The notes beneath the pieces were generated by a model, which was given only the letters and a program-made list of their open reading frames with translations, was not told the DNA's origin and searched no databases. DNA of 64,000 bases from Gammaproteobacteria bacterium (lineage in GTDB: Bacteria > Pseudomonadota > Gammaproteobacteria > Pseudomonadales > Pseudohongiellaceae), in contig CANGUU010000007.1 in the NCBI GenBank assembly GCA_947457195.1, positions 2,967-66,966 of the forward strand, read 5' to 3'. Below are positions 1,564-37,867 of the stretch, in pieces. The position numbers were made by a program, and so were the translations under genes. Every line of letters begins with the position of its first letter. Position 1 is the first letter of the stretch.

Positions 1564-2952
1564 TCAGTCTTCCCGGAAGCTGCGGGCAACGGAATCGGAA
1601 AGCGGCTTCAGCAGATACTGGATGAAGGTACGCGCCCCGGTGGTGATGAACACCTCGGCCGGCATGCCGGGCACGAGCTCCTGTCCGTTCAGTTCCGTGA
1701 GGGATTCAGGCTTCAACGCCAGGCGTGCCAGGTAGAACTGGGTACCCTGCGAATCGGTGAGGATATCGGCCGAGACCGTGGTCACCGTACCGTACAGCAC
1801 CGGTACCGTGCGGCTATTCATGGCGGTCATGCGGACGGATGCCTCTTGGCCGACTGCCACGCGGTCGATGTCCATCGGTGAGATCTTCGCTTCAATGATC
1901 AGCTCGTCGCTCTCCGGCACGATCTCGGCAATGATGGTACCGGGTGGCAGCACGCTCCCCGGCGTATGCACCGTGAGGCCATTGACGATGCCGGCCTCCG
2001 GTGTGCGGACTTCCGTGCGGCTCACTACGTCGGACAGCGCAGTGATGCGCTCGCGGTATTCCTGCAGGCGGGACTGGACGTCCGCGAGCTCCTCCACCAC
2101 ATCGGACTGCAGGCGGTTTTTCAATTGCAGGATCTGCAATCGGGTTTCCCCGATCTGGATTTGCGTGGACGCGATGGTAGCGGCCAGATCAGCGGCATCG
2201 CCATTGGTCAGGGTCAGGCTGCGCTCGAGTTCGCGCAGGCGGGATTTTTCCGCGAAGCCCTCGTCGAGCAACTGGCGGAAGTCCTGCACTTCGTCGCTGT
2301 AGGACGCAGCCAGTGCCAGTTTGCTTTCGCGTACGGCCTGCAATCCCTCCACGCGCGATTCGAGCTGACCGATGCGCTGTTCGAGCACGGAGATCTCGCC
2401 CTCGTTGGTGGTTTTGTTGGCCAGGAATATGCGCTGCTGCGCAGCCATTTCGGCGGCAGCTACCGGGTCGGACAGATCGAGGCCCGCAGGTGCTTCCACC
2501 GTGGTCTTGCCATCGCGCGCGGCCAGCAAGCGGGCCTCCAGCGCAAGCTGCGCTTTCAGCATGCCGCGGAGCGTGTCGAGCTGGCTGAGCGACTGCGTAT
2601 TGTCCATTTCCAGCAAGACATCGTTGGGCTGCACCTTGTCGCCATCGCTCACATGCACCACCTTGACGATACCGCCTTCCAGGTGCTGGATGGGCTTCTT
2701 GAACGACTTGACTGTGACCTGGCCCACGGCGTGGGCTGCGCTGTCGATGGGCGCCAGCACGGCCCACAGGCCGAACACGCCGAACACCAGCCCTGCCACG
2801 AGCAAGCCGATACGCTTCGGTGCATCGATATTGCTTTCATCGCTCGATGCGCGTTCGCGTACGACCAGTACGTCTTCCAGGCGCGCCAGTGCGCCCCCTG
2901 CCGTGTTCGGCACCGGCTCCTTGCCGAACACCACGCCTGAATTGTCTGCCAC
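1564..2952 (-). CDS. HlyD-family type I secretion periplasmic adaptor (membrane fusion protein)
   Basis: 462 aa. It has a single N-terminal TM helix (IGLLVAGLVFGVFGLWAVLAPI), a lipoyl-like hairpin (GGIVKVVHVSDGDKVQPNDVLLEMD), a long coiled coil and a C-terminal beta-barrel domain. It lies between the ABC and TolC genes. Confidence 0.9.
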   Translation of the reverse strand: MADNSGVVFGKEPVPNTAGGALARLEDVLVVRERASSDESNIDAPKRIGLLVAGLVFGVFGLWAVLAPIDSAAHAVGQVTVKSFKKPIQHLEGGIVKVVHVSDGDKVQPNDVLLEMDNTQSLSQLDTLRGMLKAQLALEARLLAARDGKTTVEAPAGLDLSDPVAAAEMAAQQRIFLANKTTNEGEISVLEQRIGQLESRVEGLQAVRESKLALAASYSDEVQDFRQLLDEGFAEKSRLRELERSLTLTNGDAADLAATIASTQIQIGETRLQILQLKNRLQSDVVEELADVQSRLQEYRERITALSDVVSRTEVRTPEAGIVNGLTVHTPGSVLPPGTIIAEIVPESDELIIEAKISPMDIDRVAVGQEASVRMTAMNSRTVPVLYGTVTTVSADILTDSQGTQFYLARLALKPESLTELNGQELVPGMPAEVFITTGARTFIQYLLKPLSDSVARSFRED

Positions 2953-2997: not shown

Positions 2998-4716
2998 TCA
3001 TGCCGCCGACCCGAGTTTGGGGGCAGGTTGGGCCAGCTGGCTCAGTACCTGCTCGCGCGGGCCAAAGCCCAGCATGGCGCCATCTTTAAGCACCAGCACC
3101 TTGTCGACCGTACCGAGAATCATGGTGCGATGGCTCACGATCACCACCGTACAGCCGGCCGCCTTGATGCGCTGAATGGCCAGCACCAGTTCACGTTCGC
3201 CCTGATCGTCGAGGTTCGAGTTCGGCTCGTCCAGCACCAGCAGGCGTGGCTCGCCATAGATCGCTCGCGCCAGCCCGATGCGCTGGCGCTGCCCACCGGA
3301 CAGCACGCCGCCGCTGCCGCCGATCACCGTATCGTAGCCCTCCGGTTGGCGCAGGATCAGGTCATGCACGCCGGACATCTGCGCGGCCGCCACGATTTTT
3401 TCGGCATCGCGCTCGCCGAAGCGGCAGATGTTGTCGGCGATCGTCCCGTCGAAGAGTTCGATGTCCTGCGGCAGGTATCCGATGTAGGGACCCAGGTCCT
3501 GGCGGTTCCAGAGGGTGATGTCGGCGCCGTCCAGCCGCACTTTGCCGCTGGCCGACGGCCATACGCCGAGGATGGCGCGCGCCAGCGTGGATTTGCCGGA
3601 GGCGCTCGGGCCGATCACGCCCAGCACTTCACCGGCGGCGAGCTGGAAGTTGATGCCGCGCAGCACCGGCACTCGCGCACCCGGCGGCGTCACATAGATT
3701 TGCTCTACCGACAGGTGTCCGAGCGGGGCCGGCAGTTGTAGCCGCTCATTGGTGGCTGGTACCTGTTCGAGCAGCGCGCAGAGGCGCTCGTACTGGGCGC
3801 GGGCGACCGAGAATGATTTCCACGTGCCCACCAGCATATCGATCGGGGCCAGCGCACGACCAAGCAGCAAGGAGCCCGCCACCATCGCGCCGCCGGTCAC
3901 CTCCTGGTTGAGCGCCAGCCAGGCGCCCAGTCCCAGGATGAGCGACTGCACCACCTGTCGGAAGGTCTTCGACATCGATGTGAGGAAGCCGGCCATCTTG
4001 CTGGCCTCGGCCTGCTGGCGGAGAACTTCCTCGCTGTACTGCTGTTGGCGGCGGCGAATCGCCGAAGTCATGCCCATCGCCTCGATGACCTCGGCATTGC
4101 GCAGGCTATTGACCAAGTGAGCGTTGGCCTTCGCCATCTCGACGTTGGCATCCTTGAGGCGACCGGTGGTGCTGATGTCGGTTACGTAGGCCAGACCGGC
4201 CATCACGATGGCGGCGAAGATCGTCATCAGCCCGTAGCTGTAATGGAACATGAACATCACTGCCAGGTAGATGGGAAACCACGGCACGTCGAAAAAGGCA
4301 AAAATACCGTTGCCGGTGAGAAACTGCCGGAGACTGGTGAGGTCGTTGATGGCCTGAGCGTTGCCCTTGCCCTGTGTTGACTGCAGCGCCGTCTTGAAGG
4401 TTGCGTTGAACACGCGCTCACGCAGGGAGCGCTCGATCTTGTTGCTGGCGAACACCAGCAGATAGGAGCGCACCCACTCGAATGCACCGGTAGCCACCAG
4501 CAGGAACAGTACCAGCAGCGTGAGATACAGCAGGGTGGAGTAGCTGCCGCTGGCTAATACACGATCGTAGACCTGCATCATGTATAGGATCGGCGCAAGT
4601 TGCAGAATATTGATCGCTGCACTGAAGGCGCCGGCGTAGATGAAGTGCTGCCGGATCGCCTGCAGCGCATCCAGCAGTTCCCTCGGTGGTTTCGGATAAT
4701 TGAAGTTCTTCATCAC
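2998..4716 (-). CDS. Type I secretion system permease/ATPase (PrtD/RsaD type, no C39 peptidase domain)
   Basis: 572 aa with an N-terminal 6-TM domain (LAPILYMMQVYDRVL motif). Walker A is GPSASGKST, the ABC signature is LSGGQRQR and Walker B is LLVLDEP. The size and the lack of an N-terminal peptidase domain fit RTX/S-layer exporters. Confidence 0.9.
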   Translation of the reverse strand: MMKNFNYPKPPRELLDALQAIRQHFIYAGAFSAAINILQLAPILYMMQVYDRVLASGSYSTLLYLTLLVLFLLVATGAFEWVRSYLLVFASNKIERSLRERVFNATFKTALQSTQGKGNAQAINDLTSLRQFLTGNGIFAFFDVPWFPIYLAVMFMFHYSYGLMTIFAAIVMAGLAYVTDISTTGRLKDANVEMAKANAHLVNSLRNAEVIEAMGMTSAIRRRQQQYSEEVLRQQAEASKMAGFLTSMSKTFRQVVQSLILGLGAWLALNQEVTGGAMVAGSLLLGRALAPIDMLVGTWKSFSVARAQYERLCALLEQVPATNERLQLPAPLGHLSVEQIYVTPPGARVPVLRGINFQLAAGEVLGVIGPSASGKSTLARAILGVWPSASGKVRLDGADITLWNRQDLGPYIGYLPQDIELFDGTIADNICRFGERDAEKIVAAAQMSGVHDLILRQPEGYDTVIGGSGGVLSGGQRQRIGLARAIYGEPRLLVLDEPNSNLDDQGERELVLAIQRIKAAGCTVVIVSHRTMILGTVDKVLVLKDGAMLGFGPREQVLSQLAQPAPKLGSAA

Positions 4717-4990: not shown

Positions 4991-5692
4991 TCAAAGCTCC
5001 TTGCTGCCCTCCACGTAGCTCTTCAGCAGGGCCAGCGAAGGGATCAGCAGGCGCGCGGCACCGTCGCGCTGTACCACGCCTTCCTGCTGCAAGGTCTGGA
5101 AGACGCGCGTGACCGTTTCTCGGCTGAGATTGAGCATGATGGCGATCTCCATGTGGGTGGGAGGATTGCGGATCTGCCCTTGCTGCAGTGCTGATTTTTC
5201 CTGCTCCTCCACCAGCAGCCACAGCTGCCAGCACACGCGCTGGGCGATGTTGGGCAGGCCGAGCAATGAGCGCTGCAAAGTGAGTTGCCGCACGCGGCGC
5301 GCCAGACGCTCGCCGAGAGAGGTGACCACCGGTGGGCAGGTTTCCATGGCGTCACGCAGCGCTGGCAACGGCACCCAGACCACCATCGCCGGCGCCAGCA
5401 CGATCACGAACTCCGGCTGTGGGCCGCTGTCGAACAGCGCGAGTTCGCCGCAGAAATCCCCGGGCTCTACGAAAAACAGCCCCACTTCGCGGCCGTCGAC
5501 GGTAAAATCCACGCCCTGCAGACGGCCCTCGAACAGAAAGCAGACGCGCTCTCCCCGCTCGCCGGCCTTCAGCACCACGGCGCGGCGCGCAAAACGCTCC
5601 ACGCTGCTTTGCTGGGCAAGCAGCCCCCGGCCGCTTGCAGGCAGCAGGCGGAGCAGGGGAAACGCGCTGAGCAGCTCGGGTGTGACGACCAT
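4991..5692 (-). CDS. Crp/Fnr-family transcriptional regulator (cNMP-binding-like domain plus C-terminal HTH)
   Basis: 233 aa. The beta-roll core is GDFCGELALF. The C-terminal HTH THMEIAIMLNLSRETVTRVFQTLQQEGVV has a recognition helix R-E-T-V-T-R that matches E. coli CRP RETVGR (R180/E181/R185). By manual alignment the phosphate-binding Arg-Ser of CRP appears replaced by Pro-Glu. Confidence 0.85.
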   Translation of the reverse strand: MVVTPELLSAFPLLRLLPASGRGLLAQQSSVERFARRAVVLKAGERGERVCFLFEGRLQGVDFTVDGREVGLFFVEPGDFCGELALFDSGPQPEFVIVLAPAMVVWVPLPALRDAMETCPPVVTSLGERLARRVRQLTLQRSLLGLPNIAQRVCWQLWLLVEEQEKSALQQGQIRNPPTHMEIAIMLNLSRETVTRVFQTLQQEGVVQRDGAARLLIPSLALLKSYVEGSKEL

Positions 5693-5811
5693 CAGCAGTC
5701 CAGGAAAGCCCCGACAGCCTGGTGGCGGAAAACGCCCAGGCCGGGAGCCGGAAAGACGGAGGCGAGTATAAGTGTCTGAGTTGTAACGGCAAACCGCGGA
5801 TGCGGCAGCCG

Positions 5812-5827
5812 TGTGACCTCGGTCACT
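5812..5827. promoter_or_regulatory. CRP-type box TGTGA-CCTCGG-TCACT (9/10 to TGTGA-N6-TCACA) in the divergent promoter between the Crp-family gene and the FecR/CHASE2 operon
   Basis: Read directly from the sequence. The site centre is 5819.5. A TATACT hexamer on the minus strand (5770-5765) would place the centre near -61.5 for the regulator gene. A TAACAT hexamer on the plus strand (5850-5855) would place it near -42.5 for the FecR operon. Both -10 assignments are by eye only. Confidence 0.45.
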
Positions 5828-6014: not shown

Positions 6015-7439
6015 ATGCAACGCGTGTCACGGACAATTCCCGCTTTTGCGCTCGCCGCCACTACGCTGCTGGCCGCGGCTGTTGCCAGCGCGTCCGGGGT
6101 AGCGCCAGTGCTGGCCATCGGTGAAATCACGCTCGTGCTCGGCAAGGCCGAAGTCAAGCGCGCCGGTGGCGCCGTGGTGCCCGCCACCGTGGGCCTGCCG
6201 GTGCACGTCAACGACCTGATCGAAACCAATGCGCGCGGCCACGTACACGTGCACTTCGTCGACGATGCGCTGGTGAGCGTGCGGCCGCAGAGCCGGCTGG
6301 AGATCCTGCGCTATGACTACGACCCGGCCCGCCCCGCCGAATCCGCAGTCAAGATGAACCTCATCGAAGGCGAAACCCACGCCATTTCCGGCGAGGCCGC
6401 CAAGGCCGCGCGCCAGAATTACCGCATGAACACGCCCATCGCTGCCATCGGCGTGCGCGGCACGGACTACACGGTCACCGCCTCGCGTGAGGCCGTCACC
6501 GCCATCGTCAACGAAGGGGCCATCGTGGTGGCGCCGTTTTCCAGCGGTTGCTCGGCTGACACGCTCGGGCCCTGCAACCAGGGTGCCGTGGAGCTGAACG
6601 GCTATTCGCGTGAGCTGCTGGCACTCAGTGCCGACGCCGCCGGCGTGCGCTCCACGCTGCTGCCGCTCGGGCCGGTGGAAGGCCGCGCCGCCGAATTGCA
6701 GACGGCACCCAGCCCAGAACCGCAGGCCACCGCCAAGCAGGCCGAAGGCCAGCAGCTCTACAACGACACGGTCTCCACCCGTACTGTGAACACCAAGTTG
6801 GCCAGCTCCAGCGAATCCGCCAAGGCGCCAGCCGCTCCCACGCCGCTGGCGCCCACCCCGGTGCCGGTCACGCCCGCCCCTCCGCCCGTGCCTGAATTCA
6901 CGCCGCCCGTAGCCGTGCCTGCCACCACGCTCGCCAGTCAGGGCCAGCTGGTGTGGGGCCGCTGGACCGAAAACAACCTGGCCAACGAGCGCATCTCGGT
7001 TTCGTACGATGTCGCCCGCCAAGATGGCCGCAGCGTGTCGGTGGGCAACACGGTCTACGCGCTGTTCCGCGCCAGCGGCAGCGAGACCGTCTTCAAGCCC
7101 ACGCTCGGCGTGCTGCAGTTCAGCTTGCAGAAAGCGCAGGCCCTCTACAGCACGGCCGGCCGGACCGACCTCATGGGCGTTTCCGGCGGCAAATTGCAGC
7201 TGGACTTCGAACAGGCGCTGTTTTCCACCACGTTGCAGCTCAGCCACGAGGCGCTCGGTAATTACCAGTTCGCCACCAGCGGGCGTATTTATTCCGGCGG
7301 CGTGTTCCACGCCAACAACGAGACGCAGGCCATGGCCGGCGCACTCAGTTACGACAACAAGGAAGCCGGCTACTTCTTCGAGCGCACGCTGCCCGGCGGC
7401 ACCATCTCCGGCATCACCCTGTGGAACCGCGCCCCGTGA
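6015..7439 (+). CDS. Secreted FecR-domain protein with Pro-rich linker and C-terminal beta-rich domain
   Basis: ATG 6015 is preceded by AGGTGAGG (5999-6006). The signal peptide is MQRVSRTIPAFALAATTLLAAAVASA with no lipobox Cys. The FecR-like segment is GEITLVLGKAEVKRAGG...VHVNDLIETNARGHVHVHFVDDALVSVRPQSRLEI. A Pro-rich linker (APAAPTPLAPTPVPVTPAPPPVP) is followed by a roughly 170-aa domain with an alternating-hydrophobic pattern. An alternative GTG start lies at 5982. Confidence 0.75.
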   Translation: MQRVSRTIPAFALAATTLLAAAVASASGVAPVLAIGEITLVLGKAEVKRAGGAVVPATVGLPVHVNDLIETNARGHVHVHFVDDALVSVRPQSRLEILRYDYDPARPAESAVKMNLIEGETHAISGEAAKAARQNYRMNTPIAAIGVRGTDYTVTASREAVTAIVNEGAIVVAPFSSGCSADTLGPCNQGAVELNGYSRELLALSADAAGVRSTLLPLGPVEGRAAELQTAPSPEPQATAKQAEGQQLYNDTVSTRTVNTKLASSSESAKAPAAPTPLAPTPVPVTPAPPPVPEFTPPVAVPATTLASQGQLVWGRWTENNLANERISVSYDVARQDGRSVSVGNTVYALFRASGSETVFKPTLGVLQFSLQKAQALYSTAGRTDLMGVSGGKLQLDFEQALFSTTLQLSHEALGNYQFATSGRIYSGGVFHANNETQAMAGALSYDNKEAGYFFERTLPGGTISGITLWNRAP

Positions 7440-9433
7440 AAAACAGCGCCGCCATGGCCGCCTTGCTCCGGATACCCGGCCGCCTGATCGGCCAGTGGCA
7501 GCCGTGGCAGGCGCGTGCCGGACTGCTGGCCGGTGCCGGCCTGCTCACGCTGTTGCTGCAGGCCCTGCTGCCGTCCCTGGTTTCTGGCGTCGAGGAGCAG
7601 CTCGGCAGTCTCGGATGGCGCCTCGCGCCCGATGCCCGGCAGGAAGAGCGCATCAACATCATTGCGATCGACGAGAAGAGCCTCGCCGAGGTGGGCCCGT
7701 GGCCCTGGTCGCGGCAGACCATGGCGCAGCTTGCCACCGCCCTGCAGCAGGCCGGCGTGCAGCTGCAGGCCTACGACATCGCCTTCCCCGAAGCCCGTGA
7801 GGGCGACGATGCCTTCGCCGCCGCGCTGGCCGGCACCAGCGCCGTGCTGGCGCAGGTGCCCGACCTGCTCAATCCGGGCCAGATCACCACCACCGGCCTG
7901 CTCGGGTCGCCGCTGCTCGGCGTGGCCTGCAGCAACGCCGCCAGCACCGGCAGCTACACCGGCAACACGGCCGCGCTGGCCGGCATCGCCGCCGGCCATG
8001 CCACGCCCATCGTCGACGGTGATGGCGCGGTGCGCCGCGTGCCGGCCTATATCTGTGTGAACGGGCAGCCCTATCCGGCACTGGCGTTGAGTGCCCTGCT
8101 CGCCGCCACCCGCACGGACAGCTGGCAGGCCACGCGCAGCACAGGCGCCGGGCCCTGGCAGGCGGTGCAGCAACTCACCTTCGCGGCCTACCCCGGGCTT
8201 GCCATTCCCCTCGACGCCGACGGCAATTTCCGCGTGTCGTTCCGCCAGTCCCCCGACGCCTACCGCGCAATTTCGGCCGCCGACGTGCTGGCCGGCCGCG
8301 TAGACCCCGGCGTGCTGGCCAACAGCTGGGCGCTGGTCGGCTTCACCGCCTTCGGCATGAACGATGTCGTCCCCACTCCCTTCAACGGCGCCGCCCACGG
8401 CGTGGAACTGCAGGCCCGCATCCTTGCCAGCGTGCTCGACGCCAACGTCCCCTTCACCCCGCGGGCGGCGCCCTGGCTGCTGGCGCTGCTGTGTGCCGGT
8501 TTCGCCGCCCTGCTGTGGGGGCTGGCCGCCGCGCGGGAGCGGCTCGGTAACTATGGGTTGGCGGCCGGTGCTCTGCTGCTGCCGGCGCTGGCGCTCTATG
8601 TCCACATGCAGGTGCTGGCACAGTCCGCCTGGTGGCTGGGCTGGTTTGCGCCGGCCGTGTTCGGGTTCCTGGCGGGCAGCCTGTTGCTGCTGCAGGAATA
8701 TGCCCGAGTGCGTTTCGAGCGGGCGCGGGTGTTTGGCAACCTCAGCAGCTACCTGCCAGCCGAGGTGGCCGAGGCCATTGCCTTCAGCCTTCCCGGTTCG
8801 TCGGTGAATGCCGAGCGCCGCAACGTGACGCTGCTCAGTGCCGATCTGCGCAATTTCTCGGCCTTCGGCGAAGCGCGGCCGCCCGAAGAATCGGCGGCGC
8901 TGCTGCACATGTTCTTCAGCAAAAGCACCGAGATCGTGGAGCGTTGCCACGGCCGCATCCACGAATTCAAGGGCGATTCGCTGCTGGCCGTGTGGGAAGG
9001 CAGCGACGCCAAGGCCGCCAACCACGCGGTGCAGGCCGCCCTGCTCATGCAGAGCGCCATCAGCGAGTTCCTGCCGCAGCACCCCCCTGCAGGGCTTGAG
9101 CCGCTGGCGCTCGGCATCGGCATCGAACAGGGGCCGGTGCTCATCGGCTCGCTGGGTTCGGCCCAGCGCCGCAGCCATACGCTGCTGGGCGAAACGGTCA
9201 CCATCACGCTGCGCATTCAGGAGATGACTGCCGAACTCGCCCATCCCGTGCTGATCGGCGAATGCGCTGCCCGCCAGCTGGCGGATCTGGCGCTGGTGTC
9301 GCAGGGCAGCTACCTGCTGGCCGGCCTGCGCAATCCGCATATACTCTACGCGCTTCCGTTCAGCGCCCTGGCGCAGGCAACTGCCAGGATCGAACAGCCT
9401 CCTCTCAGAGTGGTGCGCGGCGGACGCAGTTGA
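7436..9433 (+). CDS. CHASE2-domain membrane sensor fused to a class III adenylate/guanylate cyclase
   Basis: The GTG start overlaps the FecR stop (GTGA, 7436-7439). The architecture is an N-terminal TM, a roughly 300-aa periplasmic CHASE2-like domain, three TM helices (APWLLALLCAGFAALLWGLAAA...) and a cyclase domain. The cyclase domain has metal Asp motifs (LLSADLRNFS, FKGDSLLAVW) and GETVTITLRIQ. The Lys in FKGD is compatible with ATP specificity but does not prove it. The start could also be 7421 or 7454. Confidence 0.85.
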   Translation: MKNSAAMAALLRIPGRLIGQWQPWQARAGLLAGAGLLTLLLQALLPSLVSGVEEQLGSLGWRLAPDARQEERINIIAIDEKSLAEVGPWPWSRQTMAQLATALQQAGVQLQAYDIAFPEAREGDDAFAAALAGTSAVLAQVPDLLNPGQITTTGLLGSPLLGVACSNAASTGSYTGNTAALAGIAAGHATPIVDGDGAVRRVPAYICVNGQPYPALALSALLAATRTDSWQATRSTGAGPWQAVQQLTFAAYPGLAIPLDADGNFRVSFRQSPDAYRAISAADVLAGRVDPGVLANSWALVGFTAFGMNDVVPTPFNGAAHGVELQARILASVLDANVPFTPRAAPWLLALLCAGFAALLWGLAAARERLGNYGLAAGALLLPALALYVHMQVLAQSAWWLGWFAPAVFGFLAGSLLLLQEYARVRFERARVFGNLSSYLPAEVAEAIAFSLPGSSVNAERRNVTLLSADLRNFSAFGEARPPEESAALLHMFFSKSTEIVERCHGRIHEFKGDSLLAVWEGSDAKAANHAVQAALLMQSAISEFLPQHPPAGLEPLALGIGIEQGPVLIGSLGSAQRRSHTLLGETVTITLRIQEMTAELAHPVLIGECAARQLADLALVSQGSYLLAGLRNPHILYALPFSALAQATARIEQPPLRVVRGGRS

Positions 9434-9468
9434 GTTGCCCGCCACTTTCGGAGTTCCCTGGCGCTGTG

Positions 9469-10929
9469 ATGCTTGCCGCCCCTTCCAACCTGTGGGAGCA
9501 CAGGTCTGCGACGTCCTTGCCGCGCTCGGGTCCGCACGGTCACGCTCAGCCTTCCCGCTGCTCCGCTTCCCGCCCGGTCTCCCGGCCGCCCGTCTTGCTT
9601 CGCCGCTGGCGTGTTGGCGCCTTGCTCGCGCCTTTGCTGCTGGTGCTGGGGTTGCCCGCCGCGCTCGGGCAAACATGCCCGCCGCTGCAACCTTATTACC
9701 CGGCCAGCAACCCCGCCCCACCGGAGGAGTGGCAGGCGCGGCTGCCACAGCTGGAGGCCTTGCTGGAAAACTGCCTGCAAAGCGCCGAGTACTTTGCGCT
9801 GCTGGGCGCCGCCCGGCTCAACAGCGGGCAGGTGCCGGCGGCAGTGGAATCGCTGGAGCGCGCGCTGCTGCTGCAGCCCGGCCACGGTGCCGCCCAGATC
9901 GACTACGCCGAAGCGCTGTACCTCAGCGGCCAGCTGTTCCCGGCGCTGGAACTGAACGAGACAGTGCTCGGCCGCAGTGACCTGCCCCCCGCCCTGCGGC
10001 CGGTGATCGAGGCACGGCAGCAGTTCTGGCGCGGGCAGACCCGGCGCCGCCAGCTTTCGCTGGAAGCCACTGCCGGCTACGACACCAACCTCAACAACGC
10101 CCCCACGCGCGGCGACCTGACGCTTACCTTCGGCGGCACGCCGGTCACGCTCAGCGTGGACCCGCAGTTCCGCCCGGTGGAAGGCCGCTTTGGCAACCTG
10201 CGTGCCGGCGGCGTGTGGCAGTGGCTCACCCCCGACCACCAGCATGACTTTACGGCCAACCTGCGCGGCCGCTTCACCGGCAGCGGCGCCACCGCGCTCA
10301 ACCAGGCCCAGTGGCGCTACGGCTTCAGCCGGCCCGGCCGCCACACGGTGTGGACGGCCAACGTAGGCAGCAGCCACATGAGCTTTGGGGGTAACGCCCT
10401 CTACAGCGTGGGCGAAACCCTCCTTACGCTGGGCTGGAACAGCGCCGGCCGCTGCCAACCCGCCCTGAGCGGTGGCCTGCAGACCCTGCACTACCACGGC
10501 CAGCGGGTGATGGACGGTCTGGAGGCCAGCCTGACCGCCAGCCTCGGCTGCCGGTCGGCCAGCGGCCGCCAGCAGCTACGGGTAGACGCCGGCGGACTGG
10601 ATAACAGCGCCAGCAGCGCCAACCGGCCCGGCGGCGACCGCGCCGGCTGGAACCTGCGGCTGGGCTGGCAGTACCAGTCCGGCCGGCACCTGTGGAGCGC
10701 GCTCTACAGCCACGCCAGCGTAGAAGACCAGCGCGGCTACAGCCCGCTGCTGGCCAATGGAGCCACCCGCCGGTTGGGCAACCGGGTGCTCCTGCTGCGC
10801 TACCAATGGGGCTTTGCGGAGGGCGCCGCCTTGGTGCTGGGGCTGAGCCACCAGGCCCAGTCCAGCAACCTGCAACCGTTCCAGAATCGTGGCACTGCAA
10901 CCGAAGTGGGACTGCTGCTCAACTTCTAG
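9469..10929 (+). CDS. TPR-containing outer-membrane beta-barrel protein (possibly Slam/DUF560-like)
   Basis: The signal-like segment is LLRRWRVGALLAPLLLVLGLPAALG. TPR-like helices follow (SAEYFALLGAARLNSGQVPAAVESLERALLLQPGHGAAQIDYAEALY). About 300 aa of amphipathic beta strands begin at LSLEATAGYDTNLNNAP and end in the aromatic terminus GLLLNF. The start is uncertain: ATG 9469 or TTG 9595. The Slam/DUF560 assignment is my pattern recognition only. Confidence 0.55.
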   Translation: MLAAPSNLWEHRSATSLPRSGPHGHAQPSRCSASRPVSRPPVLLRRWRVGALLAPLLLVLGLPAALGQTCPPLQPYYPASNPAPPEEWQARLPQLEALLENCLQSAEYFALLGAARLNSGQVPAAVESLERALLLQPGHGAAQIDYAEALYLSGQLFPALELNETVLGRSDLPPALRPVIEARQQFWRGQTRRRQLSLEATAGYDTNLNNAPTRGDLTLTFGGTPVTLSVDPQFRPVEGRFGNLRAGGVWQWLTPDHQHDFTANLRGRFTGSGATALNQAQWRYGFSRPGRHTVWTANVGSSHMSFGGNALYSVGETLLTLGWNSAGRCQPALSGGLQTLHYHGQRVMDGLEASLTASLGCRSASGRQQLRVDAGGLDNSASSANRPGGDRAGWNLRLGWQYQSGRHLWSALYSHASVEDQRGYSPLLANGATRRLGNRVLLLRYQWGFAEGAALVLGLSHQAQSSNLQPFQNRGTATEVGLLLNF

Positions 10930-11134
10930 CCTTTTCCAAGTCTTTACAGCTGCTTACAGGCAATTCTTTACACTCGCTGTCAGGTGCTTGCAATGCCCTA
11001 CACGGCACGGTAGTCTTGCCACGCTTGTACTGCCCCTGACCAGCTCTTGCTCGCGCTGGGGCGTGGTCCAGTGCAAGGCAGTACCACGAACAACGTAGCA
11101 GGGCGGTCCGCAGTGGCCGGGAAAATGGCAGGTC

Positions 11135-11150
11135 TGTGACGCGAGTCACA
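11135..11150. promoter_or_regulatory. Perfect CRP consensus box TGTGA-CGCGAG-TCACA upstream of the S-layer-like gene
   Basis: Read directly: tgtga (11135-11139), cgcgag, tcaca (11146-11150). The centre is 11142.5, 117 bp upstream of ATG 11267, in a 337-bp lower-GC intergenic region. Confidence 0.6.
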
Positions 11151-11171
11151 CGCAGTGGCCAAGCCCGCCAG

Positions 11172-11177
11172 TAATAT
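11172..11177 (+). promoter_or_regulatory. Putative -10 hexamer TAATAT for the S-layer-like gene
   Basis: The TAATAT hexamer implies a TSS near 11184. That puts the CRP box centre at -41.5 (class II geometry) and gives a 5' UTR of about 83 nt ending in a strong SD, AAGGAG (11252-11257). This is a by-eye assignment with no TSS data. Confidence 0.3.
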
Positions 11178-11266
11178 CCACCCTGCTACAAGAGGCGAAA
11201 TTCCTCTACAAACCCAGTACCACTTGCCTTACCAACAACACCCTAAACTCCAAGGAGATATACAAG

Positions 11267-14200
11267 ATGGCGTCTATATCCGCTGAAGGCCGCAGTGAAC
11301 TCATTGCCCTTTACGTCACCATGTTCAACGCAGCCCCGAGCGCAGCCAACCTGTCTGCCATCGTGGGCCAGAGAGAAGGTGGCGCCAGCCTCGTGGCCGT
11401 TGCCAATACTCTGGCAGCCAGCCCCGATTTCGCCCGCCAGTATCCGGGCTTCCTGACGGCCGACGAATTTGCCAACCGTCTGGCCACCAACATGCTGGGC
11501 AGTGAGGTTTCCGCTGCCACTCGTGACTGGGCCGTGAACTACGTTCGCAGCCAGCTCACCTCCGGCCGCGCCGCCACTGCTGTGGTCACCGAGGCCGTCC
11601 AGGCCCTGCGCGGCACCACCAACACCGAATTTGCCAATGCCAAAGCACTGCTGGCCAACAAAGTGGAAGTTGCTTCCTACTACGCAATCTCGAAGGAGCA
11701 GCCAGCCGATTCCCAGGTTGTCATGATTGGTGTTACCAGTACTGCCTCGACGGTTGTCAGTGCAAAAACCGCAATCGATAGCATTGCGAGCGTAGTGGCT
11801 GGCCAGACCTTCACGCTCACTACCAGCGCCAACACGGGTGCCCTGTTTACTGGTGGTGCCGGTGACGATTCCTACAACGGCGATTTGAGCGGCGGCAACA
11901 ACACTCTGAATGCGCTGGATCGTCTCGATGGCGGCGCAGGGACGGATACGCTGAACGCTGTATTGGCGTCCGACGTTACGCCCGCCAGCATTGCCAACAT
12001 CGAAAACATCGTGGCTACTGCCTCGGGTGGCGCGCGTGAACTCAACCTGGTCAATGCACCAGGAGTCCGGTCTGTAAGCTCCACGTCCTCCTCTGGCGGC
12101 GTGATGACGGTCAGCGGCATTGCTGCTGGTGCATCGCTTGCCGTCAACTCCCAGTCCGTCGGCGCCACGTTCAACTACGCCGACACCTCGGGTACGCAAT
12201 CAATCGCCCTTGGCGTAGCCGGTGTAACAGGCGCAGCCCCTGTCACGGTAAACGGAGTAGAAACAATTGCCGTAACGGCAACGGGTTCCGCCAGCACCTA
12301 CCAGCTGTCGGCCGATGCACTGACCTCGGTGAGCTTTGCCGGTTCGGCTGCGCAAACCGTCACTCTGGCCGGTATGACCGGCACCTCTAGCTTCAACGCG
12401 GGTGCTGCTACCGGTGCTGTCAACCTGACCCTGATCAACCAGTCTATTCTGGCGTCCACCACGCGCGTGACCGTCACCGGCGGAACTGGTAACGATACGC
12501 TGACTGTCGGCGCCCATACGCAGTCCGACCTCAACGTCTCTGCCGGTGCTGGCAACGACACGGTAAGCCACAGCAGTGTTTCCACCACTGATACCCTCAG
12601 CGGCGGCGATGGAACCGATACGCTGAGCACCACAATGGCTTCCGCCAATGCGATCGATGCATCCGCCCCACTCACACGCATCATTACCGGCTTTGAGCGC
12701 ATTACGATCACTGACGCGTTCGACGGTACCCTTAGCCTATCCAACATCGACACTGGGCTTGTCCAGGTCAATCTGGCAGACGGTGCATCCGGCGCTGGTG
12801 CGTTGATGACTGGCGGTGACGCCATCACCGGCCCTGCGGGCACGCTGACAGTGAACGTTGGTGGCTCCTCTGCAGGTAACGCCACGACCATGGGCGGCGC
12901 ACTTACCGTGACGGACACCGGTACAGCGACGACGGACTCGGTAATCATCAACAATACGGCTGTCAACACCACGACTGCCCTTGGCATCAACGTGTTTAAC
13001 GCCCAAAACATCACGTCCACCGGCTATGAGAATGTCACCATTGGCGTTGGTAGCTCGGGTACGACTGCACCGGCGTCTACGATTGGTACACTCACCATTA
13101 CGCCGGACGATTTGACGGCAGCCATATCGCTCACACTGACCGGTGGAAACGATGTGACCATCTCAAGCGTGACATCGACGGGAACTGGTCGCCTGACCAT
13201 TGACGCCTCTGCCGTCAATGCCGGAACCGACAGCCCATACGTTCAGATCGACGCAGTTACCCTCGGAACAGGTGGCACTGCCAGCATCATTGGTTCTGCT
13301 GGTAACGACAGCATCACCAGCGGAACTGTTGCACAGACGATCTCCGGCGGTGCTGGTAACGATACCATCACCGGTGGCACAGCCGCCGACAACATCAGCG
13401 GCGATGCTGGCAACGACACCATCACTGATGGCGCGGGTGGCAATGACACTATCGCTGGTGGTGATGGTAACGACACGATCACCGTGACGGGTACCTCTAC
13501 CGTAAGCGTAGATGGTGGTGCCGGTAACGACACCATTAACATCGGTAGCGTATTGTCGGCGCTTGACACCGTAAGCGGGGGTGATGGTACCGATACTCTC
13601 CGTTACTCCAGTGCCGTTACCGCAGACGTTGCTGTAGGGGTGGCAGGCTTCGAAACGCTGCGCGCCGACGCTGCGCTAACGCAGGATATGGTGCAGTTCG
13701 TAAATAATGCTGGCTTTACCCGCTTGATCAACCAGGTTGCTGGTGCCGTAACGTTCAACAACGTCGGCAGCGCCGTGACCTCGTTCACCGCGGGCGTTGC
13801 GGGCTCAACGACTACTATTGATCGCCTGCTGGATACGACATCCAACAGCCTCTCGGTATCACTGACCACTGCAACGACGACGACTGCACTCACTGCAAGT
13901 GATGAAGAAACTATCACGGTGAGTTCCAGCTTGACTGGTGCAGTCACCCTGACCACACTGACGGCGGACGACTTGACCACGCTGAATATTGGCGGTCTTG
14001 GCGCCGTTACCATCACCAACATCGCCAATGCAGCCAACTTGGCTGCAATCAATATCACGACCTCGGCGGCGGTATCGGTGAATGGAAACCAGTCCACGGT
14101 TAATATGACGGCGACCGGTACATCAGCATTCGCCAACACCATTACCGGTGGTTCTGGCAATGACGTGATCACGGGTGGTTCTGCAGCAGATAGCCTCACG

Positions 14201-14869: not shown

Positions 14870-14891
14870 CCCGTAATATCTTGGCGTAATG

Positions 14892-14926
14892 AAAACCCGC
14901 CCCCCAAAAGGGGGCGGGTTTTTTTT
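14892..14926 (+). terminator. Rho-independent terminator after the S-layer-like gene
   Basis: A 9-bp GC stem (cccgccccc at 14896-14904 pairing with gggggcggg at 14910-14918) has a 5-nt loop and is followed by T8 (14919-14926). It is preceded by A4, so it may be bidirectional. Confidence 0.85.
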
Positions 14927-15113
14927 GGCTATTCTTCCGAGACCATGCCTGAGGTAGCGTAAGCCCCTCTCCTATGCGATTCACCCACTAACAACAGGCC
15001 ACACCTGCAGGGAATGTGCGGCGAGGTGACGAAGCCCGACGCCACCAAAGACTTCAACGCCGCAAACTGGGATGCATAACGACGCCCCGACTTGCAGAGG
15101 AACTCTCCCCCTC

Positions 15114-15398
15114 ATGACACTGCATCAGCACACCCGGGAACGACTGCTGGCACATCTCGCTGCTGCGGGAACAAAGGAGCAGCCCGGCGTACTCAACAAC
15201 GCGCTCAGACTCCTCGCCAAGTGGCGAAGTGCATTGATTCAAGACGTGGTACTGAAGCAGCATGGTACGGTGGTACAGCAAGGGCCACTCCAAGGACTAG
15301 AGTTCGTGGAGGCATCAGCAGAGGGTTGCCATATTGCGAAACTGCTTGGAACTTACGAGCAAGCCTTTCAGCCATTCATTGAACAGGCGGTGGGCTGA
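15114..15398 (+). CDS. Hypothetical protein; possibly the detached N-terminal part of the downstream methyltransferase
   Basis: The ORF is in the same frame as 15408-15935, separated by TGA-GGG-TAA-AAA. The upstream boundary is uncertain (ATG 15072 or 15114). No motif was recognised. Confidence 0.35.
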   Translation: MTLHQHTRERLLAHLAAAGTKEQPGVLNNALRLLAKWRSALIQDVVLKQHGTVVQQGPLQGLEFVEASAEGCHIAKLLGTYEQAFQPFIEQAVG

Positions 15399-15407
15399 GG
15401 GTAAAAA

Positions 15408-37743: not shown

Positions 37744-37867
37744 TCGCCCGGCCGCAGGCTGCGGTCTGCCGAGCACCGGTGGCGCCTCGGCGTAGCGCTG
37801 CCATCCGCCGTCGGCCCGTTGCGGGCTGGCCTTGTTCCACCACCCACCAGGATGGCCTCGCCGACCC

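What the first reader, a model, noticed from the sequence alone, without database searches (positions are those of the whole stretch)
6015..10929. Three-gene envelope sensor module: secreted FecR-domain protein, CHASE2 nucleotide cyclase, TPR/outer-membrane barrel
The three genes are co-oriented. The first two are translationally coupled through a GTGA overlap at 7436-7439, and the third starts within about 36-160 bp. Together they span all envelope layers: a periplasmic or secreted FecR-fold protein, an inner-membrane CHASE2 sensor with a cytoplasmic class III cyclase output, and an outer-membrane barrel with a periplasmic TPR arm. The ligand of CHASE2 domains is, to my knowledge, still unknown. 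A fixed partnership with a FecR-fold protein and an OM barrel would point to a trans-envelope signalling relay analogous in logic to FecA-FecR-FecI, but ending in cNMP synthesis.
Basis: partly seen in the sequence, partly recalled or inferred. Interest (0 to 1): 0.75.

Follow-up and report, generated by a model that had tools for sequence, protein, structure and literature searches.

The report
Envelope sensor cyclase controlling a secreted protein
The three genes are real: a periplasmic FecR-domain protein, an inner-membrane CHASE2 cyclase and an outer-membrane TPR-barrel, forming the input of a conserved eight-gene circuit with a Crp-like regulator, a type I secretion system and a large RTX protein; the concept has precedent, but this version has unusual parts.

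Summary
Genes 6015-7439 (FecR domain), 7436-9433 (CHASE2 plus class III cyclase, GTGA overlap) and 9469-10929 exist as described. The third gene has no barrel Pfam family. A confident AlphaFold model shows a TPR arm plus a 14-strand outer-membrane barrel.

The triad is the input half of a larger unit. Across 80 species genomes, mostly Pseudohongiellaceae, the barrel gene is preceded by:
- the cyclase in 77/78 loci
- the FecR gene in 76/77
- a divergent Crp-like regulator in 72/73
- a type I secretion operon in about 64/67.

CAP-type boxes (TGTGA-N6-TCACA) lie in the crp/FecR intergenic region in 74/74 loci and upstream of the downstream RTX-like gene in 60/74.

Three features are unusual:
- The cyclase carries the guanylate-cyclase-type Glu and lacks the transition-state Asn.
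- The Crp-like protein lacks the cyclic-phosphate-binding Arg (QPE replaces RS/RT).
- The FecR protein ends in a TbpB-like 8-strand barrel, so it and the TPR-barrel resemble a Slam/T11SS cargo and translocon pair.

The relay idea is plausible but not new. Precedents are S. meliloti NsrA-CyaK-Clr, the Campylobacterota CHASE2/FecR/TPR cluster and the Burkholderia FecR-CHASE2 kinase operon. Verdict: a new variant of a known kind. Interest 0.55.

The parts
230..1561 (-). TolC-like outer-membrane factor of a type I secretion system
   Evidence: Pfam OEP, E 6.6e-50. Present upstream in 62/65 orthologous loci.
1564..2952 (-). HlyD/AprE-type membrane-fusion protein of the T1SS
   Evidence: Pfam HlyD_3 and HlyD_D23. 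HH_AprE and Beta-barrel_AprE on the source contig. Present in 64/67 loci.
2998..4716 (-). T1SS ABC transporter
   Evidence: Pfam ABC_membrane plus ABC_tran. Present in 64/67 loci.
4991..5692 (-). Crp/Fnr-family regulator, divergent from g1. It has a CAP-like recognition helix (SRETVTRV). Its phosphate-binding cassette reads GPQPEF instead of ..RS/RT..
   Evidence: Pfam cNMP_binding, HTH_Crp_2 and Crp. Alignment to GlxR and M. tuberculosis Crp. The QPE motif and the RETV.R helix are conserved in about 72 orthologues. Present in 72/73 loci.
5765..5792 (-). Sigma-70-like promoter match (TTGCCG-16-TATACT) for the crp strand. It places the CAP-type box near -61.5.
   Evidence: Consensus scan only. 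This is weak evidence.
5812..5827 (.). CAP-type box TGTGACCTCGGTCACT in the crp/g1 divergent intergenic region
   Evidence: One of only two matches (<=1 mismatch) in the 64-kb window. A box is present in the same intergenic region in 74/74 orthologous loci.
6015..7439 (+). g1, a secreted (Sec signal peptide, no lipobox) FecR-domain protein. Layout: signal peptide aa 1-28; FecR-like beta domain aa 36-217 (nt 6120-6665); disordered Pro/Ala-rich linker aa 221-299 (nt 6675-6911); C-terminal handle plus 8-strand barrel aa 300-474 (nt 6912-7436).
   Evidence: Pfam FecR. AF2 model pLDDT 80.9. Foldseek: PupR CCSSD 6OVK and anti-sigma 4M0N for the N-terminal domain; TbpB, LbpB, fHbp and lipocalin barrels for the C-terminal domain. 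aa 38-108 match the MpIBP anchoring domain 5IX9. Cys179/Cys187 are invariant.
7436..9433 (+). g2, a CHASE2 receptor class III nucleotide cyclase. Layout: TM1; periplasmic CHASE2 (nt ~7559-8515); three TMs; cyclase-transducer element; catalytic domain (nt ~8816-9316). It overlaps g1 by GTGA.
   Evidence: Pfam CHASE2 E 8.4e-45 and Guanylate_cyc E 5.9e-11. Hydropathy. Best solved relative is Cya2 guanylate cyclase 2W01, E 5e-23. Catalytic residues tabulated over 79 orthologues.
9469..10929 (+). g3, an outer-membrane protein. Layout: signal peptide aa ~47-67; periplasmic TPR arm aa 85-189 (nt 9721-10035); 14-strand beta barrel aa 192-485 (nt 10042-10923) with a conserved hairpin in loop 1; C-terminal Phe.
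   Evidence: AF2 pLDDT 88.9. Foldseek matches BcsC, OmpG, CymA and PelB. TPR in 46/46 relatives; no PF04575 hit. Family size about 650 clusters at E<1e-10.
11135..11150 (.). Perfect CAP-type box TGTGACGCGAGTCACA, 117 nt upstream of the RTX-like gene
   Evidence: An equivalent box lies within 600 bp downstream of g3 in 60/74 loci. It follows the RTX-like gene where that gene is displaced or inverted (L025, L066, L074).
11267..14869 (+). 1200-aa RTX-repeat protein, probably the T1SS substrate and regulatory target. It resembles an S-layer protein or adhesin.
   Evidence: Pfam HemolysinCabind E 2.8e-28. GGxGxD repeats near the C-terminus. tblastn relatives lie downstream of g3 in most loci. SapC and glycosyltransferase genes follow.

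Best explanation
The three genes form the sensory input of a self-contained envelope-to-gene circuit.

**Parts**
- g3 sits in the outer membrane as a 14-strand barrel with a periplasmic TPR arm.
- g1 is exported to the periplasm. It has two folded ends joined by an ~80-residue Pro/Ala-rich linker: an N-terminal FecR-type domain, of the kind found beside CHASE2 sensors elsewhere, and a C-terminal 8-strand barrel.
- g2 is an inner-membrane receptor cyclase whose periplasmic CHASE2 domain controls a cytoplasmic class III cyclase.

**Proposed mechanism (inferred)**
A change at the cell surface or outer membrane is picked up by g3. It is passed through g1, whose C-terminal barrel is docked to g3 and whose FecR domain contacts CHASE2. 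This alters cyclase activity. The product is most likely cGMP, because the base-specifying residue is the Glu of guanylate cyclases. The signal is read out by the divergently encoded Crp-family regulator. That regulator binds the conserved TGTGA-N6-TCACA boxes. It thereby controls its own strand (crp, and possibly the T1SS genes downstream of it), the sensor operon and the large RTX-type surface protein exported by the adjacent T1SS.

**Shown**
- Domains, folds and topology.
- Strict synteny across 80 species genomes.
- Conserved catalytic Asp, Asp and Arg.
- Conserved CAP-type boxes at both promoter regions.

**Inferred**
- Who binds whom.
- The direction of signal flow.
- The nucleotide made.
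- Whether the Crp-like protein senses that nucleotide.
For: - Domain and fold assignments.
- Extracytoplasmic hallmarks: signal peptides, invariant Cys pairs and a terminal Phe on the barrel.
- Tight g1/g2 coupling: GTGA overlap in the window, and a 1-nt overlap to 2-nt gap in the orthologues.
- Synteny in 80 species-level genomes whose g3 is only 37-87% identical: cyclase 77/78, FecR 76/77, Crp 72/73, ABC 64/67, MFP 64/67, OEP 62/65.
- The same layout (Crp, FecR protein, CHASE2 cyclase, g3-like barrel, giant protein, two boxes) on a Methyloprofundus plasmid at about 30-35% identity.
- CAP-type boxes: the only two in the 64-kb window sit in the two relevant intergenic regions. They are conserved in 74/74 and 60/74 loci, at a density of 1.6/kb against 0.026/kb elsewhere. 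The box travels with the RTX-like gene when that gene moves.
- The regulator has the CAP recognition helix RETVxR (PMC10187061).
- Cyclase residues: both metal Asp 79/79, Arg 78/79, and Glu at the Cya2 E488 base-specificity position 79/79.
- Precedent: S. meliloti NsrA (outer-membrane barrel) is required for signalling through the CHASE2 cyclases CyaK/CyaD1/D2 to Clr (PMC7529298, PMC13001267).
Against: - No interaction among the three proteins was tested or modelled.
- The Crp-like regulator lacks the RS/RT phosphate-binding signature (Gln-Pro instead) and the TS base-contact signature. These are conserved differences (PMC10187061), so canonical cNMP binding is doubtful.
- The cyclase lacks the transition-state Asn in 79/79 orthologues (Thr, Ser, Ala or Gly instead), so activity may be low or altered.
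- The Methyloprofundus homologue has Lys (adenylate type) and lacks the Arg, so nucleotide specificity is not uniform across the wider group.
- Most synteny comes from one family-level lineage, so part of the conservation is inheritance.
- g3 is less tightly linked to g2 than g1 is. Gaps are 36-230 nt, and foreign genes are inserted in L006 and L007.
Confidence: 0.5

Rival explanations
1. g1 and g3 are a Slam/type 11 secretion-like cargo and translocon pair. The TPR + 14-strand barrel g3 moves g1 across the outer membrane, recognising its C-terminal 8-strand barrel. g1 is then displayed on the surface or released, like the unlipidated hemophores. Its FecR/anchoring-type N-terminal domain acts outside the cell. 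The CHASE2 cyclase either senses g1 traffic or load, or only co-regulates it.
For: - g3 has the Slam architecture: a ~120-aa periplasmic TPR region plus a 14-strand barrel (definition in PMC8406197).
- g1 has the described cargo layout of N-terminal effector, beta 'pedestal' and C-terminal 8-strand barrel. Its best structural matches for that part are the Slam cargos TbpB, LbpB and fHbp (PMC12282271).
- The two genes are always adjacent.
- There are weak sequence hints in divergent g3 relatives: TPR_Slam in 17/86 and PF04575 in 2/86.
- g1 aa 38-108 resemble the cell-surface anchoring domain of an RTX adhesin.
Against: - No significant PF04575 hit in 46 + 86 family members.
- No TbpBBD or Lipoprot_C hit in 44 g1 relatives.
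- Foldseek TM-scores for the g1 C-terminal domain are low (0.2-0.4), and lipocalins match about as well.
- FecR-domain proteins pair with CHASE2 sensors in operons that are not described as having a barrel gene, and there carry a peptidoglycan-binding LysM domain (PMC5192318). That points to a periplasmic role.
- A cyclase gene translationally coupled to a mere cargo gene would be unexplained.
Confidence: 0.2
2. The circuit is real, but the link between cyclase and regulator is not a canonical 3',5'-cAMP/cGMP step. One possibility is that the cyclase makes a different nucleotide, read by the QPE-type pocket. Another is that the cyclase domain is a low-activity or scaffolding domain and the Crp-like protein responds to another ligand or to none.
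For: - Two conserved departures occur together: the cyclase has no transition-state Asn and has Glu at the base-specifying site, and the regulator lacks both cNMP-binding signatures.
- All characterised cNMP-binding CRPs listed in the review keep the Arg (PMC10187061).
- The Methyloprofundus cyclase also lacks the catalytic Arg, while its regulator keeps xPEF.
Against: - Both metal-binding Asp, the Arg and the Glu are under strict conservation in 78-79/79 orthologues. That is expected for an active enzyme.
- The regulator keeps the Gly-Glu of the ribose-binding site and the whole cNMP-binding fold.
- No alternative receptor or enzyme is encoded in the conserved locus.
Confidence: 0.2
3. g3 is an export porin for a polysaccharide or another envelope component, like BcsC, PgaA or PelB. 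It serves the neighbouring glycosyltransferase and S-layer genes and is not part of the sensor.
For: - The best Foldseek matches are BcsC, with PelBC also listed. These are TPR-plus-barrel exopolysaccharide exporters.
- Glycosyltransferase and sugar-nucleotide genes lie downstream in the window.
Against: - g3 stays next to the FecR and CHASE2 genes in 77/78 loci, while the downstream genes vary and are unrelated in L004 and L005.
- The barrel has 14 strands. PgaA is described as a 16-strand barrel (PMC8406197).
- No synthase of the Bcs, Pga or Pel type was seen in the loci examined.
- TM-scores to BcsC are only 0.35-0.39.
Confidence: 0.05

Closest known systems
Sinorhizobium meliloti NsrA - CyaK/CyaD1/CyaD2 - Clr pathway
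   Same: - An outer-membrane beta-barrel protein is genetically required for activation of inner-membrane CHASE2 class III cyclases.
- The cyclic nucleotide is read by a Crp-family regulator encoded next to a cyclase gene.
- A FecR-domain protein (SMc02177) is encoded in the cyaD1/clr neighbourhood.
Sources: PMC7529298, PMC13001267, PMC5498481.
   Different: - NsrA is described with its barrel at residues 600-1200. tblastn of g3 against the plasmid collection, which holds pSymB (stated from memory to carry nsrA), found no similarity.
- Clr uses a different recognition helix and site.
- The review lists an RS-type signature for every characterised cNMP-binding CRP; the regulator here has QPE.
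- SMc02177 is a Clr target that was not needed for signal perception.
- No T1SS/RTX output is described there.
Campylobacterota cAMP cluster (CHASE2 adenylate cyclase + phosphodiesterase + FecR-domain protein + TPR protein), Mo et al. 2022, PMC9239204
   Same: The same triad of domain types is clustered and was proposed to act in one pathway.
   Different: - It is described only as a gene cluster.
- It includes a phosphodiesterase, which is absent here.
- No divergent Crp gene, T1SS or RTX target is reported in the passages read.
- Homology of its TPR protein to g3 was not tested.
Burkholderia BiofilmReg operon and P. aeruginosa PA4035-type pair (LysM/FecR protein + CHASE2 histidine kinase), PMC5192318
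   Same: A secreted FecR-domain protein is encoded immediately upstream of a CHASE2 sensor. This shows that the FecR-CHASE2 partnership does not depend on the output domain.
   Different: - The output is a histidine kinase and response regulator.
- The FecR protein carries LysM rather than a C-terminal 8-strand barrel.
- The fourth gene is DUF4136, not a TPR-barrel.
Slam / type 11 secretion system (DUF560 outer-membrane protein plus TbpB-like cargo)
   Same: - The translocon architecture is a periplasmic TPR region plus a 14-strand barrel.
- The cargo architecture is an N-terminal effector plus a C-terminal 8-strand barrel.
- The two genes are adjacent.
Sources.
   Different: - No significant match to PF04575, TbpBBD or Lipoprot_C.
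- A signalling cyclase is encoded between the two genes.
- No TonB-dependent receptor partner is present.
FecA-FecR-FecI / PupB-PupR cell-surface signalling
   Same: - The g1 N-terminal domain has the FecR (PF04773) fold. Its nearest solved matches are an anti-sigma factor (4M0N) and the PupR cell-surface signalling domain (6OVK).
- The logic of outside-to-inside signalling through an outer-membrane barrel is shared.
   Different: - No TonB-dependent transducer, plug or STN domain.
- No cytoplasmic anti-sigma domain or TM segment in g1.
- No ECF sigma factor in the locus.
- The output is a nucleotide cyclase.
Synechocystis Cya2 (CHASE2 guanylate cyclase) and Rhodospirillum centenum GcyB/GcyC-CgrA cGMP circuit
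   Same: - Cya2 is the best solved relative of the catalytic domain and shares the base-specifying Glu (E488).
- In R. centenum, guanylate cyclase genes share an operon with a Crp homologue, behind a perfect TGTGA-N6-TCACA box (PMC10187061).
   Different: - Cya2 keeps the catalytic Asn.
- CgrA keeps the RT signature.
- In the passages read, neither is described with FecR or barrel partners, or with a T1SS output.

Membership tests
CHASE2 sensor domain (PF05226) | Significant match to the family profile | tested here: met
   E 8.4e-45, 153.8 bits against a cutoff of 26.3.
CHASE2 sensor domain (PF05226) | Extracytoplasmic domain bounded by one N-terminal TM and further TMs ahead of the output domain | tested here: met
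   Hydropathy shows a TM at ~27-50 and three TMs at 343-419 (665-aa numbering). This is a prediction only.
Class III nucleotide cyclase (PF00211) | Significant match to the catalytic-domain profile and to solved cyclases | tested here: met
   Pfam E 5.9e-11. Cya2 2W01 E 5e-23.
Class III nucleotide cyclase (PF00211) | Two metal-binding Asp and the transition-state Arg | tested here: met
   ADLRNF and EFKGD are present in 79/79 orthologues. The Arg in ..TLR is present in 78/79.
Class III nucleotide cyclase (PF00211) | Transition-state Asn (G-D/E-T-V-N motif) | tested here: not met
   The window has GETVTITLR. The position is Thr, Ser, Ala, Gly or Val and never Asn in 79 orthologues.
Guanylate-type specificity (as in Cya2) | Glu instead of Lys at the base-specifying position four residues before the second metal Asp | tested here: met
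   The query Glu aligns with Cya2 E488. The E488K variant (6FHT) is an adenylate cyclase. Glu is present in 79/79 orthologues. The actual substrate was not tested.
FecR domain (PF04773) | Significant profile match and FecR/PupR-like fold | tested here: met
   E 2.7e-10, and 44/44 relatives match. Foldseek hits 4M0N and 6OVK_R at E ~1e-5, TM 0.5.
FecR-type anti-sigma regulator (cell-surface signalling) | N-terminal cytoplasmic anti-sigma domain plus TM, with ECF sigma and TonB-dependent transducer genes as partners | tested here: not met
   g1 begins with a cleavable-type signal peptide. No sigma factor or TonB-dependent receptor appears in the gene lists of the locus.
FecR-type anti-sigma regulator (cell-surface signalling) | Self-cleaving Gly-Thr site (FecR G181/T182) | tested here: inconclusive
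   g1 has an invariant G149-T150-D151 in the VRGTDY motif. FecR cleavage at G181/T182 is taken from PMC12036975. Positional equivalence and cleavage were not tested.
Slam / T11SS outer-membrane protein (DUF560, PF04575) | Periplasmic N-terminal TPR region followed by a 14-strand barrel | tested here: met
   AF2 model. Definition from PMC8406197.
Slam / T11SS outer-membrane protein (DUF560, PF04575) | Significant match to PF04575 | tested here: not met
   0/46 close relatives and 2/86 distant relatives match, with best E 0.02, which is sub-threshold. TPR_Slam matches 17/86 with best E 0.003.
T11SS cargo | C-terminal eight-strand beta-barrel (TbpBBD / lipoprotein C type) | tested here: inconclusive
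   The model has 8 strands at aa 366-472 and matches TbpB, LbpB and fHbp with low TM-scores. No Pfam hit to those families in 44 relatives.
Exopolysaccharide TPR-porins (BcsC/PgaA/PelB) | A 16-strand or larger barrel, with a cognate synthase operon | tested here: not met
   g3 has 14 strands. No Bcs, Pga or Pel synthase was seen in the loci examined, and the downstream genes vary.
cNMP-binding CRP (CAP/GlxR/Clr/CgrA type) | cNMP-binding and HTH_Crp domains with an R-E-x-V-x-R recognition helix | tested here: met
   Pfam hits. SRETVTRV is conserved. Cognate TGTGA-N6-TCACA boxes are conserved.
cNMP-binding CRP (CAP/GlxR/Clr/CgrA type) | RS/RT phosphate-binding signature and TS/TN base-contact signature | tested here: not met
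   GPQPEF aligns to GPRTSS of GlxR and M. tuberculosis Crp. The C-helix has LT in place of TN. QPE is conserved in the orthologues. Signature definitions are from PMC10187061.
S. meliloti NsrA-type receptor | Sequence similarity to NsrA | tested here: not met
   tblastn of g3 against the plasmid collection, which holds pSymB NC_003078.1 (said from memory to carry nsrA), gave only the Methyloprofundus hit. A distant relationship is not excluded.
Type I secretion system | Adjacent ABC transporter, membrane-fusion protein and TolC-like factor, plus an RTX-repeat substrate | tested here: met
   Pfam hits. Source-contig annotation. RTX repeats. Secretion itself was not tested.

The most novel reading that the evidence does not exclude
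The locus encodes an orthogonal second-messenger circuit with a re-purposed secretion pair as its antenna.
- A Slam/T11SS-like barrel (g3) holds the C-terminal 8-strand barrel of g1.
- The Pro-rich linker of g1 spans the periplasm, so that its FecR domain gates the CHASE2 domain. That would give CHASE2 a protein ligand rather than a small molecule.
- The atypical cyclase (Glu specifier, no Asn) makes a nucleotide that is read by a Crp-family receptor which has replaced the universal phosphate-binding Arg with Gln-Pro-Glu. This insulates the circuit from the cell's ordinary cAMP/cGMP pools.
Probability: 0.12. Interest if true: 0.85.

Novelty: new variant of a known kind. Interest (0 to 1): 0.55.

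Why it matters
What CHASE2 domains sense is still essentially unknown. The only functional lead is the S. meliloti outer-membrane protein NsrA. This locus offers a compact and strictly conserved version of the same logic. Every component is adjacent: barrel, FecR-domain connector, CHASE2 cyclase, regulator, operator sites, target gene and its secretion system. It also occurs in cultured bacteria (Pseudohongiella spirulinae and strain LSUCC0112).

That makes several questions directly testable:
- Is the immediate CHASE2 ligand a partner protein (the FecR domain)?
- Can Slam-like barrels serve in signalling?
- How does a Crp-family protein work without the canonical cyclic-phosphate Arg?
- Do bacteria use cGMP to control an S-layer or RTX surface protein?

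If the answers are ordinary, this remains a well-annotated example of a known type of pathway.

Tried and rejected
- **Slam/DUF560 membership by sequence.** I scanned 46 close and 86 distant g3 relatives against Pfam. Only sub-threshold hits appeared. It is rejected as a demonstrated membership and kept as an architectural resemblance.
- **A solved relative for the g3 barrel.** A family profile against PDB sequences found only TPR proteins.
- **Homology of g3 to S. meliloti NsrA.** tblastn against the plasmid collection, which includes pSymB, found nothing in Sinorhizobium.
- **Locating cyaK on pSymB.** The hit I followed (L008) is a different cyclase without CHASE2. The CHASE2-only query did not reach S. 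meliloti 1021. I dropped this line.
- **Reading Garnerone 2018 and Tian 2012.** Neither paper is held.
- **Sampling distant CHASE2 cyclases for their neighbours.** The g2 homologue search listed only 56-89% identical orthologues. The reverse question, what fraction of all CHASE2 cyclases have FecR and barrel partners, was therefore not answered here.
- **T11SS cargo Pfam families in g1 relatives.** None were found.
- **A CAP-type box in front of the T1SS ABC gene.** It is present in only 5 loci, so separate Crp control of that promoter is not supported.
- **Terminator and promoter scans inside the triad.** Nothing exceeded chance.

Full report
**1. The observation**

The window is part of a 307-kb metagenomic scaffold (ENA ERZ28613074, scaffold_10). 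An independent gene caller on that scaffold called the same three genes: 6015-7439 (474 aa), 7436-9433 (665 aa) and 9469-10929 (486 aa).

The GTGA overlap at 7436-7439 can be read directly from the sequence. In four orthologous loci the two genes overlap by 1 nt or are 2 nt apart.

Pfam gives the following:
- g1: FecR, E 2.7e-10.
- g2: CHASE2, E 8.4e-45, and Guanylate_cyc, E 5.9e-11.

g1 begins with a Sec-type signal peptide (…AAVASASG) and has no lipobox. g2 has one TM, a ~300-residue periplasmic segment, three TMs and a cytoplasmic cyclase.

The window protein gives only sub-threshold TPR hits and no barrel family, and DUF560/Slam does not match. The TPR assignment nevertheless holds across the family: 46/46 relatives match, and a family profile hits TPR structures at E 1e-13. 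An AlphaFold2 model built on 46 homologues is confident (pLDDT 88.9, pTM 0.78). It shows a signal peptide, TPR helices at aa 85-189 and 14 long antiparallel strands at aa 192-485, ending in a C-terminal Phe. Foldseek returns outer-membrane proteins only. BcsC (TPR plus barrel) is first, followed by the 14-strand OmpG and CymA.

The caveats are that Slam membership is not shown by sequence, and that the g3 start codon is uncertain (9469, or about 120 nt downstream).

**2. The triad is half of a larger conserved unit**

Upstream on the opposite strand lie four genes:
- a TolC-like factor (230-1561)
- an AprE/HlyD-type membrane-fusion protein (1564-2952)
- an ABC transporter (2998-4716)
- a Crp/Fnr-family regulator (4991-5692), divergent from g1.

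Downstream lies a 1200-aa RTX-repeat protein (11267-14869). It is followed by glycosyltransferases and a SapC-family gene.

A scan of one genome per species found 162 genomes with a g3 relative. Most are Pseudohongiella, Pseudohongiellaceae or other Pseudomonadales metagenome-assembled genomes. The set also includes the cultured strain LSUCC0112 (L057), and the cyclase family includes Pseudohongiella spirulinae (P0345).

I checked the 80 loci returned by tblastn with the window proteins, counting only loci with enough upstream DNA:

| Gene found upstream of g3 | Loci |
|---|---|
| CHASE2 cyclase | 77/78 |
| FecR protein | 76/77 |
| Crp-like gene | 72/73 |
| ABC transporter | 64/67 |
| Membrane-fusion protein | 64/67 |
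| TolC-like factor | 62/65 |

g3 identity across these loci is only 37-87%. This is more than recent common ancestry, although most loci belong to one family-level lineage.

A much more distant copy sits on a 42-kb Methyloprofundus plasmid (cyclase 36% identical, barrel 29%). It has the same order: Crp, FecR protein, CHASE2 cyclase, g3-like barrel, then a 1640-aa protein.

**3. Regulatory wiring**

The regulator has the CAP recognition helix (SRETVTRV). A search for TGTGA-N6-TCACA with at most one mismatch finds only two sites in the 64-kb window, about what chance would give in the window as a whole:
- 5812-5827, in the crp/g1 divergent region
- 11135-11150, a perfect palindrome 117 nt upstream of the RTX gene.

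In the orthologous loci a box is present in 74/74 crp-FecR intergenic regions and within 600 bp downstream of g3 in 60/74. Site density is 1.6 per kb in these regions against 0.026 per kb elsewhere. Where the RTX-like gene has been displaced or inverted (L025, L066, L074), a perfect box lies beside it. The Methyloprofundus plasmid has both boxes as well.

A weak sigma-70 match on the crp strand would put the first box near -61.5, a classical class I position. That rests on a consensus scan alone.

I take it as well supported that the Crp-like protein controls the divergent promoter region and the RTX-like gene. The divergent region would serve its own gene, possibly the T1SS genes downstream of it, and the sensor operon.

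**4. Three unusual parts**

*(a) The cyclase.* Its closest solved relative is Synechocystis Cya2, itself a CHASE2 guanylate cyclase. The two PDB sequences 2W01 (wild type) and 6FHT (E488K, converted to an adenylate cyclase; PMC5995499) differ at exactly the residue that aligns with the Glu in the window's HEFKGD. Adenylate cyclases in the same alignment have Lys there.

Across 79 orthologues:

| Catalytic feature | Result |
|---|---|
| First metal-binding Asp | 79/79 |
| Second metal-binding Asp | 79/79 |
| Base-specifying Glu | 79/79 |
| Transition-state Arg | 78/79 |
| Transition-state Asn | never present (Thr, Ser, Ala, Gly or Val instead) |

The enzyme is therefore probably active and guanylate-type, but it is not canonical. 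Neither point was tested.

*(b) The regulator.* In alignment with GlxR and M. tuberculosis Crp, the phosphate-binding RT(S) is replaced by Q-P-E (GPQPEF), and the C-helix TN is replaced by LT. QPE is conserved in the orthologues, and the Methyloprofundus protein has APEF. A recent review lists an RS or RT signature for every characterised cNMP-binding CRP, including the cGMP receptor CgrA (PMC10187061). Whether this protein reads the cyclase's product is therefore the weakest link of the relay.

*(c) The FecR protein.* The AlphaFold model (pLDDT 80.9) has two folded domains separated by a disordered Pro/Ala-rich stretch at aa 221-299.
- The N-terminal domain matches an anti-sigma factor (4M0N) and the PupR cell-surface signalling domain (6OVK). 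Its first 70 residues match the anchoring domain of the MpIBP RTX adhesin (5IX9).
- The C-terminal domain is a small beta 'handle' plus an 8-strand barrel. Its matches are TbpB, LbpB and fHbp, with lipocalins next.

TbpB, LbpB and fHbp are cargos of Slam/type 11 secretion. The outer-membrane component of that system is defined as a periplasmic TPR region plus a 14-strand DUF560 barrel. Its cargos are defined as an N-terminal effector plus a C-terminal 8-strand barrel (PMC8406197, PMC12282271). g3 and g1 therefore resemble a translocon and cargo pair in architecture.

Sequence support is only sub-threshold. Among 86 distant g3 relatives, TPR_Slam matches 17 and PF04575 matches 2, with best E 0.02. 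No cargo family matches any of 44 g1 relatives.

**5. Mechanism**

My preferred reading (confidence about 0.5) is a trans-envelope relay:
1. g3 in the outer membrane detects a change.
2. g1 acts as a periplasm-spanning connector, with its barrel end at g3 and its FecR end at CHASE2.
3. g2 converts the signal into cyclic-nucleotide synthesis, probably cGMP.
4. The Crp-like regulator sets expression of the sensor, of itself (and perhaps the T1SS genes downstream of it), and of the RTX-type surface protein.

The shown steps are the folds, the topology, the synteny, the catalytic-site conservation and the operator conservation. The contacts, the stimulus, the nucleotide and the ligand of the regulator are inferred.

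The main rivals are:
- g3 exports g1 as a T11SS-like cargo (0.2).
- The cyclase-to-regulator step is non-canonical or absent (0.2). This overlaps with the main model rather than excluding it.
- g3 is an unrelated polysaccharide porin (0.05). This is disfavoured because g3 stays with the sensor genes while the downstream genes change.

**6. Comparison with what is known**

The concept has clear precedents:
- S. meliloti uses the outer-membrane barrel protein NsrA upstream of the CHASE2 cyclases CyaK, CyaD1 and CyaD2, and the Crp-family regulator Clr (PMC7529298, PMC13001267). The FecR-domain gene smc02177 lies in the cyaD1/clr neighbourhood, though it was not needed for signal perception (PMC5498481).
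- Campylobacterota cluster a CHASE2 cyclase with a phosphodiesterase, a FecR-domain protein and a TPR protein (PMC9239204).
- Burkholderia and P. aeruginosa place a LysM/FecR protein directly upstream of a CHASE2 histidine kinase (PMC5192318).

I did not find the following described: this g3 family (about 650 clusters at E < 1e-10, no Pfam family for the barrel), the Slam-like pairing of g1 and g3, the QPE-type regulator, the Asn-less Glu-type cyclase, or the T1SS/RTX output with conserved operators. I rate it a new variant of a known kind, interest 0.55.

**7. Limits**

- No protein-protein prediction or experiment was possible.
- The reverse census, the share of all CHASE2 cyclases that have these partners, was not obtained.
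- Two key S. meliloti papers could not be read.
- Remote homology of g3 to Slam or NsrA remains open.

Noticed in passing
window 1-26534: The whole left part of the window looks like a surface-protein island. It holds a T1SS, an RTX-repeat protein with a DUF4214-like N-terminus, two GT4 glycosyltransferases, a SapC-family gene (seen on the source contig), sugar-nucleotide dehydratase and epimerase genes, and a Peptidase_M10 (serralysin-like) gene at 24981-26534 that could be a second T1SS substrate. This is reminiscent of S-layer loci.
   Followed up: partly
window 11001-18000: G+C drops from about 0.69 (6-11 kb, the sensor operon) to 0.57-0.61 across the RTX gene and the glycosyltransferase genes. 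This may reflect the repeat-rich, Thr/Ala/Gly-rich coding sequence or a different origin for this segment.
   Followed up: no
window 52952-56734 (- strand; a 1280-aa ORF also lies on the + strand at 52955-56797): A 1260-aa ORF with no Pfam hit at E <= 1e-5. A nearly full-length ORF runs antisense to it. Which strand is coding was not resolved.
   Followed up: no
L006 8974-9864; L007 4830-5768: In two loci a foreign gene sits between the cyclase and the barrel gene: a PDDEXK_2 protein in a contig whose g3 protein a source labels Hyphomicrobiales, and a RepA replication initiator on the Methyloprofundus plasmid. The g2-g3 junction therefore tolerates insertions, unlike the g1-g2 junction.
   Followed up: partly
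L016, L054: Two contigs carrying the cluster are labelled 'MAG: Klebsiella pneumoniae'. Given that the other carriers are Pseudohongiellaceae and Pseudomonadales, these are probably mis-binned or mislabelled contigs.
   Followed up: no
L007 (AP023241.1, Methyloprofundus plasmid pINp10): A 42-kb plasmid of a mussel-gill methanotroph MAG carries a diverged copy of the circuit. Its cyclase has Lys (adenylate type) at the specificity site and lacks both the catalytic Asn and the Arg. Its regulator keeps the xPEF motif, and both CAP-type boxes are present.
   Followed up: partly
window 6459-6467 (g1 aa 149-151): An invariant Gly-Thr-Asp lies in the VRGTDY motif of the FecR domain. FecR and FoxR self-cleave at a Gly-Thr bond in their periplasmic domain, so g1 might be autoprocessed into two associated fragments.
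   Followed up: partly
window 37832-40141: A GAF-domain enzyme I homologue (PtsP-like), followed by a heavy-metal P-type ATPase at 40206-42425. These are ordinary housekeeping genes unrelated to the finding.
   Followed up: no
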